A program made the translations under genes and the position numbers. Of a stretch of DNA of 64,000 bases, positions 595 through 54,889 are shown one piece after another. Under the pieces are notes generated by a model. That model made no database searches. It worked only from the letters and a program-made list of their open reading frames with translations, and was not told where the DNA came from. The stretch is taken from NCBI GenBank assembly GCA_038087875.1, contig CM075992.1:8186001-8250000 (forward strand). Direction: 5' to 3'. Numbering within the stretch: the stretch's first letter is position 1; every line of letters starts with the position of its first letter. The stretch comes from Malacoraja senta (lineage: Eukaryota).

Positions 595-870
595 TTTAAT
601 TTAGAGAAACAGCACAGAAACAGGCCCTTTGGCCCACCGAGTCTGCATCGACCAGCGATCCCCGTTACACTAGCACACACTAGGGACAATTTACAATTTT
701 ACCAAGCCAATTAACCTACAAACCTGCATGTCTTTGGAATGTGGGAGGAAACCGGGGCACCCGGAGAAAACCCACACGGTCACGGGGAGGACGTACAAAC
801 TCTGTACAGACAGCACCCGTAAGTCAGGATCTAACCCAGGTCTCTGGCACTGTGCCACTGTGCCGCCCAT
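595..870 (-). mobile_element. HE1-type (V-SINE) tRNA-derived SINE, interrupted at its head by the ribozyme element
   Basis: GGGCGGCAC head, V-domain (CTCCCCGTGACCG.GTGGGTTTTCTCCGGGTG..CCGGTTTCCTCCCAC) and GGGCC.AAGGGCCTGTTTC tail shared with CR1 3' ends. Confidence 0.8.
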
Positions 871-1009
871 CTTCTTCTTCTTTCGTGTGGCGTGCACCGC
901 CTAAAGTTGTAGGACAACTTGTTCTATTTGATCTTCCGTTTGTGCACGTCGAGTTGATTGCATTAGTCGAAACAGGGCGGACCACGTGAAGGTTGCAATC
1001 TTCCACCCC
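871..1009 (-). mobile_element. 139-bp ribozyme-headed SINE-like retroposon with (GAA)n tail
   Basis: Exact 11-bp direct repeat GTGCCGCCCAT at 860-870 and 1010-1020; 3' tail GAAAGAAGAAGAAG; 5' end coincides with ribozyme G1. Confidence 0.85.
956..1009 (-). ncRNA. Minimal HDV/CPEB3-like self-cleaving ribozyme (predicted, 54 nt)
   Basis: Minus strand reads GGGGUGG-AA-GAUUGCA-ACC-UUCACGU-GGU-CCGCCCU-GUUUCGA-CUAA-UGCAAUC. P1 has a G1-U wobble, P2 is a perfect 7 bp, P3 is 3 bp, L3 is UUCACGU and J4/2 is CUAA with the putative catalytic C at 966. Confidence 0.85.
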
Positions 1010-3728
1010 GTGCCGCCCATGTTACTGTGTGACATCTTATAAAACAAACAAATTAAAAGCATTTTGGAGTATTATTCTGGAACAGAAAACAGAAAACCTG
1101 TTAATCCAGCACCACTAAGGCCCCAGGTTATCAGAGTTTTACTGTACAGTTCACTGGTGCATTGTCTTGCTACACACTGCACCCTACAGGCCTCAGCTCC
1201 CGAGCACTGGATTGAACTCCCCGCACAGGGTTGCTTGAACGCTGATTGGAGTCTCCTGCTACACATAGCTTATCACTGCCTCAAATTACCAGTTGTGCAA
1301 GGCAGTGTTTCACACGCAGATAATTAGGCAACCTTTTAAATATCTAATTGGCATTGAAGTCGACTCCGGGTGAGGTTTAAATAAACAGACACCAGACTCC
1401 ACAGTGGGCTAAAGCATCTTATTCAGAGACATCGAACATCTGGTAAAATTACACAAAGACAACAAAATGCTATTTATAACAAAATGACTCTTTTTAAAAA
1501 ATACACCTTTCTATCCATACAAAATAGTCAAATTTCCTAAATAAGCTATGCTATCGGTACAAATGAGAGAAATAAAACCCATGAAGTGAAAAGTAATACT
1601 AACAGCTTCAGCAACCCTTCCGTACTTCAGTAGCATGTTCAGCCCTTAGGCCTTCAGTCAAATCTGTTCCTCTGATAACCTCATTTGAAGTGGTTCATGC
1701 TTTCTTTGTGGCTGACTAAGCAATGGCTGACGTTCCATGGAAAGACTCAGGCAGTTCGCTGGATCTGGGATCATATTTCAGACCATTTGACTCACAAAAG
1801 ATAATGAGAAAATCCTTCAAAATACACGATTTCCTACCCGTTGGCTCATTTCAAAGTAACCTCTATAATAATTAGTGACATGTATTCCGCGCGACACTGG
1901 AGCAGGTTTGAGCAACAAAGTGGCTTACTCTTGCGACATGATTCCAGCAAAATGGAGGGTCTCGATAGAGAAATGACGACAATAGTCTTACAAGAAATGC
2001 ACTTCGGAAAACCTCCTTGACCCAATCAGGAAAGAAGCTTTATTACACTTAGTTCTTGGGGATCTGTGAAAAATATTGTCAGTGGGGAACACTTGAGGAG
2101 CAGCAATCATCAAATAAACTTTGGGAATACATTTTCTATCATAGAAAAGATGTTGAATCTTCATGGATGCCATTGAGCTGGAAAGGGCACAGTGAAGATT
2201 TGCAAGGATGTTGGCAGGACTCAAAGACCTGAGCTATCGGGAGACATTGGGACAGCCAGGACATTATTCCTTGGATTGCAGAAGGCTTCGTAACTTAGTC
2301 GACGACCTATACGTGGCGACTCTTTGCATACTTTGTGTATGGTAGCAAAACAAAGAATTCCACTGTGCCTTGTCACACGTGATAATAAAGTATCAATCAA
2401 AAGGGAATAGAGGGACAGGGGACACTCAGAAATAGAACCTGTACATTGGAGGTCTAACATCCACAGGATGAGCAAGGATCCATCCAAGGTATAGTGGAAC
2501 CAAATATTGGCAGGTAAAAGTGTGGAGGAGCAATGGATGAACAGATGCTTTAGGCACAAGCTAAATACATTCAAACAAAGGGGGGAGTAGGGAAGCCAAA
2601 GCTCCTGGAGAAGCGAGTCAGAGTAGATGATGCAAGAAAAAGTATATGATGGTGCTGTAATTTAAGAGAAGCGAAGAGACAAAAAAAAAAAAAAGAGATT
2701 ATGGTTAGAAAGTGATGGTATACAAAAAGGGCTCCTGAAGTCTCCTGTAGATGTGCAAACAGTCAGGGAAAATGTATTGGGGGAGGGATAGGATTGATTG
2801 ATGTAAACAAAGTGTTCCTTCCATATAAACTGAAGGCTTGGCTCAAATATGTATGGGGTGACAACTGCTAAGTTTTACAAAGACTAGCTATCCCTAAATC
2901 AGTCACCTGGTTAATGCGGGATGCAAGCTCAGTTCCTGAGGAAGTTCAGTGGAGGTTGTGGGCGAGCTGGGCACAATCTTTCAATCCTCCCCTGACATAG
3001 GAAAGATGCCACAGGGTTGAAAAATGAGAACTATTCAGTCAGGCCAGGCAACTATGGATCAGTTAAATTAATCTCAGTTGTGGGGAAACATGTTAAAAAC
3101 AATGACCAGGGAGACAGCAAAAGGCACATGGAGACATTTGAGAAGATACGAGATCCAGCACAATGTTGTTAAAGGCAAATTGTGTTTGACTAACCTGATT
3201 GAAGTTGCTGCAGGAAAATCAGCAGTGGTTGTTTACACAGATTTTTATGAGATATTTCACAAAGTTACTGAACACAAAGCAAAACTGAACTCAATAGAGT
3301 GAAAGAGCAGCATGATAACATTTTAAGGCAGAAAGCAGACAGTAGTGGTAAGTGGTTGTTTTATGCAACCGGGAGATTGTGGTGCTCCCCAGAGTCAATG
3401 CTAGAACCACACCTTTGGATATGGTTTAGTTTAGAGACACAGCATGAAAACCAGACCCTTCGGCCCACCGGGTCCATGACGACCATCGATCACCCATTCA
3501 CACTCGTTCTATGTTATCCCACTCTCTCATCCACTCTCTACACATTGAGGGGTCAATTAACCCACAAACCTGCAAGTCCTTGGGATGTGGGAGGAAACCC
3601 ACATGATCATAGAGAGAATATGCACACTCCACATGGACAGCTTCCAAGATCAGGATTGAACCTGGAACTCTGCACTATGAAGTAGCAGCTCTACCAGCTG
3701 CGTCATTGTGGCTCACACATACACACAC

Positions 3729-19747: not shown

Positions 19748-20032
<285 letters not shown>

Positions 20033-54428: not shown

Positions 54429-54889
54429 AGGGCCTGTCCCACTTGGCCGTCATTTGCGCGCCATTTACGTGACTTCCAAAAATGTGGTCGTCACGTTGTG
54501 ACGCACGGGTAGCATGTGGGTAGCGCAGGACGGGCGCATGCAGAGGCGTGGAGTAGTGTGGAGTTGCGCGCGGTATCGCGCGGCACTCCAGGATTTCATG
54601 CTGCACTAAATCCTCGCGCGCCACCTGCGCATTAGGTACGCACGCTGACGCATTGGCGTCGCATGCTGGCGTCCCGACATCTCACGTGTATCACGTGGTG
54701 ACGCATGGTTACGTCACCATGCGTAACCATGCGTCACCGCGCGCCGCAGGGTATTCTAATGACGTCACGCGCACCAGACGGCATGATGACGCGTGATTTG
54801 CGCGCAACGTCGTGCGTAACGACGCATCGACCTATTTTACATATGACGCGTAAATGAGGCGCAAATGACGGCCAAGTGGGACAGGCCCT
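54429..54889. mobile_element. CpG-rich MITE sharing termini with the Harbinger-like MITEs
   Basis: About 31-bp perfect TIR AGGGCCTGTCCCACTTGGCCGTCATTTGCGC; interior unrelated to the 313-bp copies. Confidence 0.85.

What the first reader, a model, noticed from the sequence alone, without database searches (positions are those of the whole stretch)
956..1009. Complete minimal HDV/CPEB3-like ribozyme fold downstream of PKN1
Seen in sequence (minus strand): P1 GGGGUGG (1009-1003) pairs with CCGCCCU (980-974), including the G1-U wobble. P2 GAUUGCA (1000-994) pairs perfectly with UGCAAUC (962-956). P3 is ACC/GGU around loop UUCACGU. This is followed by GU, a P4 shrunk to a U-A pair closing UUCG, and J4/2 CUAA with C at 966. 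Established knowledge: this is the element order of the HDV nested double pseudoknot; L3 UUCACGU followed by GU after P1' is what the mammalian CPEB3 ribozyme has; CUAA occurs in the antigenomic HDV J4/2; P4 is dispensable in minimal HDV-like ribozymes. Inference: a 54-nt self-cleaving RNA that cuts between 1010 and 1009. An alternative G973-C966 pair could sequester the catalytic C and slow cleavage.
Basis: partly seen in the sequence, partly recalled or inferred. Interest (0 to 1): 0.92.

Follow-up and report, generated by a model that had tools for sequence, protein, structure and literature searches.

The report
Self-cleaving ribozyme heading a SINE
A 54-base RNA motif shaped like the hepatitis delta virus self-cutting ribozyme forms the exact first bases of a short jumping-DNA element present in thousands of copies in this animal genome, and most likely cuts the element's RNA free from whatever transcript it lies in.

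Summary
A generic HDV-like descriptor expects 0.03 such sites per window.

The motif is not a lone locus. It is the first 54 nt of a ~140-nt SINE-like retroelement made of ribozyme, ~70-nt body, (GAA)n tail and 6-15 bp target-site duplications. 4,259 ribozyme heads lie within 3 mismatches, and 5,343 bodies belong to an older subfamily.

In 52 of 63 copies with a 5' end, the duplication abuts nucleotide G1, the predicted cleavage site. In one single-cell cDNA run, most sense-strand reads carry a template-switch oligo joined directly to G1, so RNA 5' ends lie there in vivo.

The two subfamily consensuses differ at 1 of 54 ribozyme positions and 10 of 83 body positions.

Weak points:
- Rfam scores are below threshold (21 bits against 50).
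- No covariation was found and no cleavage assay exists.
- A start of transcription at G1 is not excluded.
- No partner LINE was found.

Verdict: probably a working, P4-less HDV-like ribozyme with a CPEB3-type core. Ribozyme-headed retroposons are a known kind; this is a new variant.

The parts
1010..1019 (-). 5' copy of the target-site duplication (TGGGCGGCAC), abutting G1
1003..1009 (-). P1 5' strand GGGGUGG; G1 (1009) is the first nucleotide of the element and the predicted 3' side of the scissile bond
1001..1002 (-). J1/2 (AA; A8 is G in 8 of 20 older-subfamily copies)
994..1000 (-). P2 5' strand GAUUGCA
981..993 (-). P3 (ACC/GGU) with loop L3 UUCACGU (990-984): U20, C22, A23 and G25 as named for CPEB3
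974..980 (-). P1 3' strand CCGCCCU
972..973 (-). J1/4 GU: partners of C22/U21 for a one-G-C-plus-U-U P1.1
   Evidence: inference by analogy
967..971 (-). UUCGA linker in the place of P4 (P4 effectively absent)
   Evidence: P4 shown as deleted in both Rfam alignments
963..966 (-). J4/2 CUAA with the putative catalytic C966 (CGAA in the older subfamily)
956..962 (-). P2 3' strand UGCAAUC
885..955 (-). SINE body without coding capacity; contains inverted repeats (CGUGCACA...UGUGCACG; AAGUUGU...ACAACUU) read by eye
870..884 (-). GAAAG(AAG)n tail, the 3' end of the element
860..869 (-). 3' copy of the target-site duplication (TGGGCGGCAC)

Best explanation
Window 1009..870 (minus strand) is one intact copy of a ~140-nt non-autonomous non-LTR retroelement (SINE-like). 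Its first 54 nt are a minimal, P4-less HDV-like self-cleaving ribozyme.

Proposed mechanism:
1. The element has no recognisable promoter of its own and is transcribed as part of host transcripts. Co-transcription is shown.
2. The ribozyme folds into the nested double pseudoknot and cuts immediately 5' of its own G1. This releases an RNA that starts exactly at G1. The RNA 5' ends at G1 are shown; cleavage chemistry is inferred.
3. The 3' stem-loops and the (GAA)n tail are used by an unidentified LINE reverse transcriptase for target-primed reverse transcription (inferred).
4. [quoted passage not shown]
For: (1) Fold. All helices and core letters are present. The nested part, P1+P3, is itself the minimum-free-energy structure and leaves 37-54 free for P2. 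The only Rfam families up to E=10 are two HDV families, both aligned in register. My descriptor expects 0.03 sites per window, about 2e-7 per position.

(2) Copy number. There are 2150+2109 = 4,259 matches to the 54-mer with at most 3 mismatches, and 0 in the reversed control. The older subfamily has 5,343 bodies. The two counts overlap to an unknown degree.

(3) The element starts at G1. Homology in 40 of 40 scored BLAST matches begins 1-5 nt upstream of G1 (query positions 17-21; G1 is position 22).
- Subfamily A: of 50 loci, the script found a 5' end in 43. The duplication abuts G1 with 0 extra nt in 36, with 1-2 extra nt in 6, and was not found in 1.
- The other 7 of the 50 are 5 truncated copies and 2 internally deleted copies, judged by eye.
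- Subfamily B: of 20 copies, 16 abut with 0 extra nt, 1 has 1 extra nt, and 3 have no duplication found.
- Upstream sequence is unrelated between copies.

(4) RNA 5' ends at G1 (run X21, a single-cell cDNA library).
- Reads are mostly on the element's sense strand: depth 591 against 144 at 1000-1008.
- 634 reads have loose ends just beyond 1009, with median length 31.
- Their consensus (agreement 0.75) is the reverse complement of a template-switch oligo ending GGG. That oligo is printed as such in a methods section.
- The reads therefore carry 3 oligo G plus the element's 4 G. That fits a switch at a true RNA 5' end at G1, whereas invasion at the internal GGGG would leave at most 4 G (my inference).
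- The reads carry copy-specific variants, for example 911 A>T in 204 of 470, so they are not one molecule.

(5) Conservation. The A and B consensuses differ at 1 of 54 ribozyme columns (an unpaired J4/2 position) and at 10 of 83 body columns (Fisher p 0.05).

(6) No Pol III-type head. ARAGORN finds no tRNA, and Rfam shows no tRNA, 5S or 7SL match up to E=10 in 900-1060.

(7) Precedent.
- HDV-like ribozymes at the 5' ends of LINEs and non-autonomous elements: review PMC6765202, passages; abstracts of PMC3414825 and PMC3383444.
- P4-less minimal HDV-like ribozymes: PMC10879173, passages.
Against: - No cleavage assay exists.
- Rfam scores are far below gathering (21 against 50 bits; 16 against 44), and RF00622 (CPEB3) gives nothing up to E=10.
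- There is no covariation: P1, P2 and P3 are identical in both subfamily consensuses.
- The fold energy of the nested part is ordinary (z -0.04).
- Bulk oligo-dT runs do not show cleavage. In X23 and X24, 492 and 344 reads run on past 1009 into varied flanks, against summed depths of about 590 and 462. The tool flags no place where molecules begin or end. These libraries give equal depth in both orientations, so sense read-through cannot be separated from antisense transcripts, but efficient cleavage is not shown there.
- The template-switch reading rests on a consensus line, not on single reads. It comes from 'organism C', which need not be the window's species.
- A 5' end at G1 would also arise from an internal promoter.
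- P4 is absent, and only a 5-nt linker precedes the catalytic C.
- No partner LINE was found.
Confidence: 0.75

Rival explanations
1. The RNA 5' end at G1 is a start of transcription from an internal promoter (Pol III-like, or an internal Pol II promoter as in L1Tc Pr77). The HDV-like fold is then non-catalytic or coincidental.
For: Ordinary SINEs start at their transcription start. The template-switch junction at G1 does not tell a cleaved end from an initiated one. The element has no run of four or more T on its sense strand (read). In L1Tc/NARTc the same 77 nt are both promoter and ribozyme (abstract of PMC3383444).
Against: No tRNA, 5S or 7SL-like head was found. A complete HDV-type fold whose cleavage site coincides with nucleotide 1 has a chance of about 2e-7 per position. 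The ribozyme is the most conserved part between subfamilies. Abundant co-transcripts exist.
Confidence: 0.1
2. The head descends from an HDV-like ribozyme that lost P4 and is now catalytically feeble. It is kept as a structured 5' module, for binding of the reverse transcriptase, RNA stability or 5'-end definition during reverse transcription.
For: P4 is absent, with only a 5-nt linker. Scores against HDV models are low. Many bulk reads cross G1. 5'-end RNA structure is said to influence R2-mediated insertion (title of PMC11331408 in the listing; paper not read).
Against: Natural P4-less HDV-like ribozymes are reported to self-cleave (PMC10879173 passages). All core letters are kept: G1-U, U20, C22, G25 and the catalytic C. 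In X21 most sense RNAs end at G1. Of 20 old copies, 19 keep C44, although dead copies decay neutrally.
Confidence: 0.12
3. It is a chance match to a permissive secondary-structure pattern.
For: The descriptor was written after seeing the candidate. It also hits one unrelated GC-rich site in the window (54805..54731). The fold z-score is about 0.
Against: Shuffles give 0.03 sites per window. The site coincides with a repeat boundary, with the target-site duplications and with RNA 5' ends.
Confidence: 0.01

Closest known systems
R2 SIDEs and NARTc (non-autonomous derivatives of R2 and L1Tc with a 5' HDV-like ribozyme)
   Same: Short non-coding retroelement. An HDV-like ribozyme forms the very 5' end and releases the element RNA from a co-transcript. 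Flanked by target-site duplications. Sources: abstracts of PMC3414825 and PMC3383444; review passages in PMC6765202.
   Different: This element is dispersed rather than rDNA-specific. It is in a vertebrate-type genome carrying a PKN gene. Its ribozyme lacks P4. It has a (GAA)n tail. No autonomous element sharing its 5' or 3' end was found.
Minimal (P4-less) HDV-like ribozymes: metagenomic drz-Mtgn and phage theta ribozymes
   Same: Nested double pseudoknot without the P4 domain, about 50-55 nt (PMC10879173 passages).
   Different: Those come from metagenomes and gut phages, often next to tRNA genes. This one heads a eukaryotic retroposon with thousands of copies.
Mammalian CPEB3 ribozyme
   Same: The same element lengths up to nt 38. 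The letters U20, C22, A23 and G25 match. P1.1 has one G-C plus a U-U pair. J4/2 is 4 nt and starts with the catalytic C; the older subfamily has CGAA, matching C57, G58, A59 and A60 as named in PMC4836649. Full identity of the 7-nt L3 is recalled, not checked.
   Different: CPEB3 is single-copy, intronic and mammalian, and has a full P4. Rfam RF00622 gives no match up to E=10. P1 and P2 sequences were not compared here.
HDV ribozyme family (Rfam RF00094) and the single-copy HDV-like site in this genome (L031)
   Same: Same order of elements. The RF00094 consensus reads G-C-u-A-A at J4/2, as here. L031 shares P3 (ACC/GGU) and the same P1, J1/2 and P2 lengths. It differs by two-sided changes in P1 pairs 4 and 7 and P2 pairs 4, 6 and 7 (read by eye).
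   Different: 21 bits against a gathering score of 50. The SINE lacks P4. L031 has a full P4, a different L3 and is single-copy. Homology between the two is not shown.
Hammerhead-bearing SINE-like elements of Schistosoma (Sm-alpha)
   Same: A SINE-like retroposon carrying a small self-cleaving ribozyme (review PMC6765202).
   Different: A different ribozyme class. Those have a Pol III promoter upstream of the ribozyme.

Membership tests
HDV-like (delta-like) self-cleaving ribozymes | Nested double pseudoknot in the order P1-J1/2-P2-P3-L3-P3'-P1'-J1/4-(P4)-J4/2-P2' | tested here: met
   Direct reading, my descriptor, and in-register alignment to RF00094 and RF02682
HDV-like (delta-like) self-cleaving ribozymes | G1-U wobble at the cleavage-site end of P1, and a catalytic C in J4/2 three nt before P2' | tested here: met
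   G1009-U974; C966 followed by UAA and then P2'
HDV-like (delta-like) self-cleaving ribozymes | L3 letters for the G25-U20 metal site and for the P1.1 pair with J1/4 | tested here: met
   U20, C22, G25, G37 and U38 are present; their roles are taken from PMC4836649 passages
HDV-like (delta-like) self-cleaving ribozymes | Score at or above the Rfam gathering threshold of an HDV-type model | tested here: not met
   RF00094 21 bits (threshold 50); RF02682 16 bits (threshold 44); no hit at gathering in the window. Both models carry P4.
HDV-like (delta-like) self-cleaving ribozymes | Covariation supporting the helices | tested here: inconclusive
   Helices are identical in the A and B consensuses. 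Two-sided differences appear only against L031, whose homology is unproven.
HDV-like (delta-like) self-cleaving ribozymes | Divalent-ion-dependent self-scission 5' of G1, giving a 5'-OH product | not testable with these tools
   Indirect only: cDNA reads with a template-switch oligo joined to G1
Minimal P4-less HDV-like ribozymes | No P4 domain | tested here: met
   5 nt (971-967) lie between J1/4 and the catalytic C; definition from PMC10879173
Theta ribozymes (phage subgroup of minimal HDV-like ribozymes) | Phage context with the cleavage site next to a tRNA gene | tested here: not met
   No tRNA in 700-1200; the context is a dispersed eukaryotic repeat
CPEB3 ribozyme | Match to Rfam RF00622; single-copy intronic locus | tested here: not met
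   No RF00622 match up to E=10; 4,259 copies
Ribozyme-headed non-autonomous non-LTR retroelements (SIDE/NARTc type) | Dispersed repeat whose 5' end coincides with the ribozyme cleavage site, flanked by target-site duplications, with a 3' tail | tested here: met
Ribozyme-headed non-autonomous non-LTR retroelements (SIDE/NARTc type) | An autonomous partner sharing the 5' ribozyme and/or the 3' end | tested here: not met
   No P4-bearing or longer version. No other context for the 3' terminal 24-mer or 16-mer. 14 RT-bearing loci show no similarity. These searches are partial, so absence is not shown.
Classical Pol III SINE | tRNA-, 7SL- or 5S-derived head with internal promoter boxes | tested here: not met
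   ARAGORN finds none. The Rfam E-value scan of 900-1060 lists only HDV families.

The most novel reading that the evidence does not exclude
This would be a promoter-less SINE defined at its 5' end only by a 54-nt P4-less HDV-like ribozyme, the smallest natural eukaryotic member. It is mobilised without sharing recognisable sequence with any LINE. Its CPEB3-type active-site loop, P1.1 and J4/2 (CGAA in the older subfamily) would mean that the mammalian CPEB3 ribozyme descends from the head of such a retroposon.
Probability: 0.12. Interest if true: 0.8.

Novelty: new variant of a known kind. Interest (0 to 1): 0.6.

Why it matters
HDV-like ribozymes at retrotransposon 5' ends are known. P4-less minimal ones have been tied only to metagenomes and phages, and a 2024 paper calls their origin and function open (PMC10879173).

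This case gives a minimal form a clear eukaryotic setting and a likely job: cutting a promoter-less SINE out of host transcripts. It offers thousands of natural copies and in vivo 5' ends to work with.

Thousands of identical potential cleavage sites also sit inside host transcripts in either orientation. If active, they could cut host pre-mRNAs wherever a copy lies in the sense orientation. The window's copy lies on the same strand as a PKN-family gene.

The CPEB3-like core gives a testable lead on where that mammalian ribozyme came from.

Tried and rejected
- Conserved C at -1. The 29 best BLAST loci all had C at -1. The unbiased sample showed t/c/a/g, so this was selection by the query's own flank.
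I used patterns and Rfam families instead.
- A P4-bearing version of the same ribozyme. The gapped patterns gave 1 and 5 matches, all idiosyncratic duplications or insertions in SINE copies.
- A partner LINE sharing the 3' end. The terminal 24-mer in another context gave 0 matches. The terminal 16-mer gave 4, against 1 in the control. The 3' pattern (3,633) is not in excess over the heads.
- RT loci. Of the 150 best RVT_1 matches I fetched 14. None resembles the SINE. The one that had (GAA)3 nearby ends in a (GAAA)n-like tail.
- Other families with the same P3/L3 core gave 4 matches against 7 in the control.
- Twenty window ORFs of 133 aa or more gave no Pfam family.
- Run X8 laid 0 reads.
- The fold z-score is uninformative for a pseudoknot.
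- The papers of Ruminski 2011 and Webb 2009 are not held. What they list for vertebrates or SINEs could bear on novelty.
- The literature search for HDV-like ribozymes in cartilaginous fishes returned only fish papers. I do not claim the organism, nor that the element is unpublished.
- Repbase and Dfam could not be consulted.
- Earlier notes of this scan held nothing on this genome or sequence.

Full report
**Observation**

On the minus strand, 1009..956 reads GGGGUGG AA GAUUGCA ACC UUCACGU GGU CCGCCCU GU UUCGA CUAA UGCAAUC.
- P1 has 7 pairs, with G1-U and U5-G wobbles.
- P2 has 7 Watson-Crick pairs.
- P3 has 3 pairs around a 7-nt loop.
- C966 lies 3 nt before P2'.

The only slip is P4. Five nucleotides separate GU from C966, so the 'U-A pair closing UUCG' reuses a U, and P4 is in effect absent.

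The nested part (P1 plus part of P3) is the minimum-free-energy structure and leaves the 3' 18 nt free for P2. The z-score (-0.04) says nothing either way for a pseudoknot.

**Chance and Rfam**

Rfam at gathering thresholds finds nothing in the window. A local E-value scan of 900-1060 lists only two families up to E=10, both HDV-type:
- RF00094: 21 bits, E 0.3, gathering score 50.
- RF02682: 16 bits, E 0.59, gathering score 44.

Both align in register, with P4 deleted. RF00622 (CPEB3) is not listed.

I wrote a generic HDV-like descriptor after seeing the candidate. It finds this site and one GC-rich site at 54805..54731 in the window. In 100 dinucleotide shuffles it finds a mean of 0.03 sites per window.

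**What it belongs to**

The window lies in a 1.94-Gb assembly. A 91-nt query around the motif gave 410 first-look candidates. All 40 that were scored were 99-100% identical, with homology starting 1-5 nt before G1.

Pattern counts in the genome:

| Pattern | Mismatches allowed | Matches | Reversed control |
|---|---|---|---|
| 54-mer ribozyme | up to 3 | 2150+2109 = 4,259 | 0 |
| 36-nt 3' end | up to 2 | 3,633 | 0 |
| 35-nt body of a second subfamily (B) | up to 3 | 5,343 | 0 |

These sets overlap to an unknown degree.

Each copy consists of the ribozyme (54 nt), a ~70-nt non-coding body and a GAAAG(AAG)n tail. It is flanked by a 6-15 bp target-site duplication. The window's copy spans 1009..870, with TGGGCGGCAC at 1019-1010 and at 869-860. 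It is inserted in another repeat.

**The 5' end**

| Sample | Copies | 5' end found | Duplication abuts nt 1 (0 extra nt) | 1-2 extra nt | No duplication found |
|---|---|---|---|---|---|
| Subfamily A loci | 50 | 43 | 36 | 6 | 1 |
| Subfamily B loci | 20 | 20 | 16 | 1 | 3 |

The A sample combines 30 loci from BLAST with 20 chosen on contig C1 for an exact 3' end but an inexact head. It includes four segmental-duplicate pairs. The remaining 7 A loci, by eye, are 5 truncated copies (one a duplicate pair) and 2 that start at G1 but carry internal deletions.

Sequence upstream of G1 is unrelated between copies. The apparent invariant C at -1 was selection by the query's flank. The family's first nucleotide is therefore the predicted product end of the ribozyme.

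**RNA**

Runs of at least nine coded organism labels in 12 studies hold the stretch. I laid four runs on 820-1060.

Bulk oligo-dT runs X23 and X24:
- The element is covered at about 220-390 reads in each orientation.
- 92% of laid reads run on into unlike flanks.
- 492 and 344 reads run past 1009 into varied sequence.
- The tool flags no place where molecules begin or end.
- The element is thus widely co-transcribed in both orientations. These unstranded data do not show cleavage.

Single-cell run X21:
- Reads lie mainly on the element's sense strand (591 against 144 at 1000-1008).
- 634 reads have loose ends beyond 1009, with median length 31.
- Their consensus (agreement 0.75) is the reverse complement of a template-switch oligo ending in GGG. 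A methods section prints the oligo as such.
- The junction therefore has three oligo G plus the element's four G. I take this as template switching at a genuine RNA 5' end at G1, because invasion at the internal GGGG would leave four G at most.
- About three quarters of 634 is close to the sense depth, so most sense RNAs primed at the A-rich tail end at G1. Poly-T loose ends at 881-888 mark that priming.
- Variants typical of different copies show that many molecules are involved.
- The X24 consensus at 1009 (agreement 0.42) resembles a second, recalled version of the oligo at 22 of 30 places, compared by eye.

Caveats: I saw consensus lines, not reads. Organism C need not be the window's species. 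A 5' end alone does not tell cleavage from initiation.

**Conservation**

The consensus of 44 A copies and that of 20 B copies differ at 1 of 54 ribozyme columns and at 10 of 83 body columns (Fisher p 0.05). The single ribozyme difference is the second letter of J4/2: U in A and G in B.

In B, J4/2 is CGAA in 15 copies, CAAA in 4 and UGAA in 1. A8 is G in 8 of the 20. The helices do not vary, so there is no covariation.

**Comparison with known ribozymes**

Passages of PMC4836649 name, for CPEB3:
- U20, C22, A23 and G25.
- A P1.1 of one G-C plus one U-U pair.
- A 4-nt J4/2 holding C57, G58, A59 and A60.

The SINE head has the same letters at the same numbers up to nt 38, and subfamily B has CGAA. 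Full identity of the 7-nt loop to CPEB3 is recalled, not checked.

PMC10879173 states that minimal HDV-like ribozymes lack P4 and were first found in metagenomes. It adds that their origin and function were undetermined before the phage theta group.

The review PMC6765202 states that LINEs and non-autonomous SINEs use HDV-like ribozymes to free themselves from co-transcripts. It also reports that hundreds of intergenic copies with conserved downstream and varied upstream sequence had been seen. The kind is therefore known. The combination here is what I have not seen described in the papers I could reach. That combination is a P4-less head with a CPEB3-type core on a vertebrate-type SINE present in thousands of copies. 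The primary papers (Webb 2009, Ruminski 2011, Riccitelli 2014) were not available to me.

**Partner**

I found no autonomous element sharing either end (14 RT loci). I also found no other family with the same P3/L3 core. These searches are partial.

**Verdict**

The motif is most likely (0.75) a working minimal HDV-like ribozyme that defines the 5' end of a SINE RNA.

Rivals:
- A start of transcription at G1 (0.10).
- A catalytically decayed structural head (0.12).
- Chance (0.01).

Noticed in passing
L031:1501-1583 minus strand (G000:C1:320228970-320229052): This is the only hit of Rfam RF00094 in the whole genome: 43.8 bits (gathering 50), E 2.4e-5 locally. It is a full HDV-like fold with a complete P4, and it has the same P3 and the same P1, J1/2 and P2 lengths as the SINE head. 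It is single-copy (1 candidate, 1 match). It is followed about 170 nt later by an (AAAACT)-like run and a possible degraded target-site duplication, read by eye. It may be an old solitary ribozyme-headed insertion or a domesticated ribozyme.
   Followed up: partly
window 19748-20032 minus strand: An AGC-kinase exon (..[11 protein letters not shown]..) matches PKN1 and PKN2 about equally (E 3e-29 and 5e-29). The SINE copy lies about 19 kb further on, on the same strand, so it could be co-transcribed in the sense orientation if the transcription unit reaches it.
   Followed up: partly
window about 700-869 and 1010-1060; also L011: The SINE copy sits inside another abundant repeat; the flank shares long stretches with the flank of L011. 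Reads cover 820-855 at up to about 190 in X24, with a fixed difference at 832.
   Followed up: no
window 54731-54805 minus strand: This is a second match to my loose HDV-like descriptor, in a GC-rich palindromic stretch (GCGCGC...GCGCGC). It is probably chance; no Rfam hit was seen at gathering.
   Followed up: no
G000:C2:75442194, 75444460, 75446726: Three exact ribozyme copies lie 2,266 bp apart on one strand, so a tandemly triplicated segment carries the SINE.
   Followed up: no
genome-wide; L054-L067: RVT_1 gives 159,857 first-look candidates. Many of the 150 scored have long open frames, and a 1,271-aa frame recurs, so at least one LINE family looks young. L065 carries a LINE ending in AATAAA plus a (GAAA)n-like tail.
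   Followed up: partly
window 881-888 (run X21): Poly-T loose ends (82+41+60 reads) occur at the start of the (GAA)n tail. They show oligo-dT priming on, or polyadenylation at, the element's own tail. Which of the two was not resolved.
   Followed up: no
L091 (G000:C12:26256189-26256248): One SINE copy has a ~23-nt insertion flanked by a duplicated TTTCGAC, exactly where P4 would sit. It is a single case.
   Followed up: no
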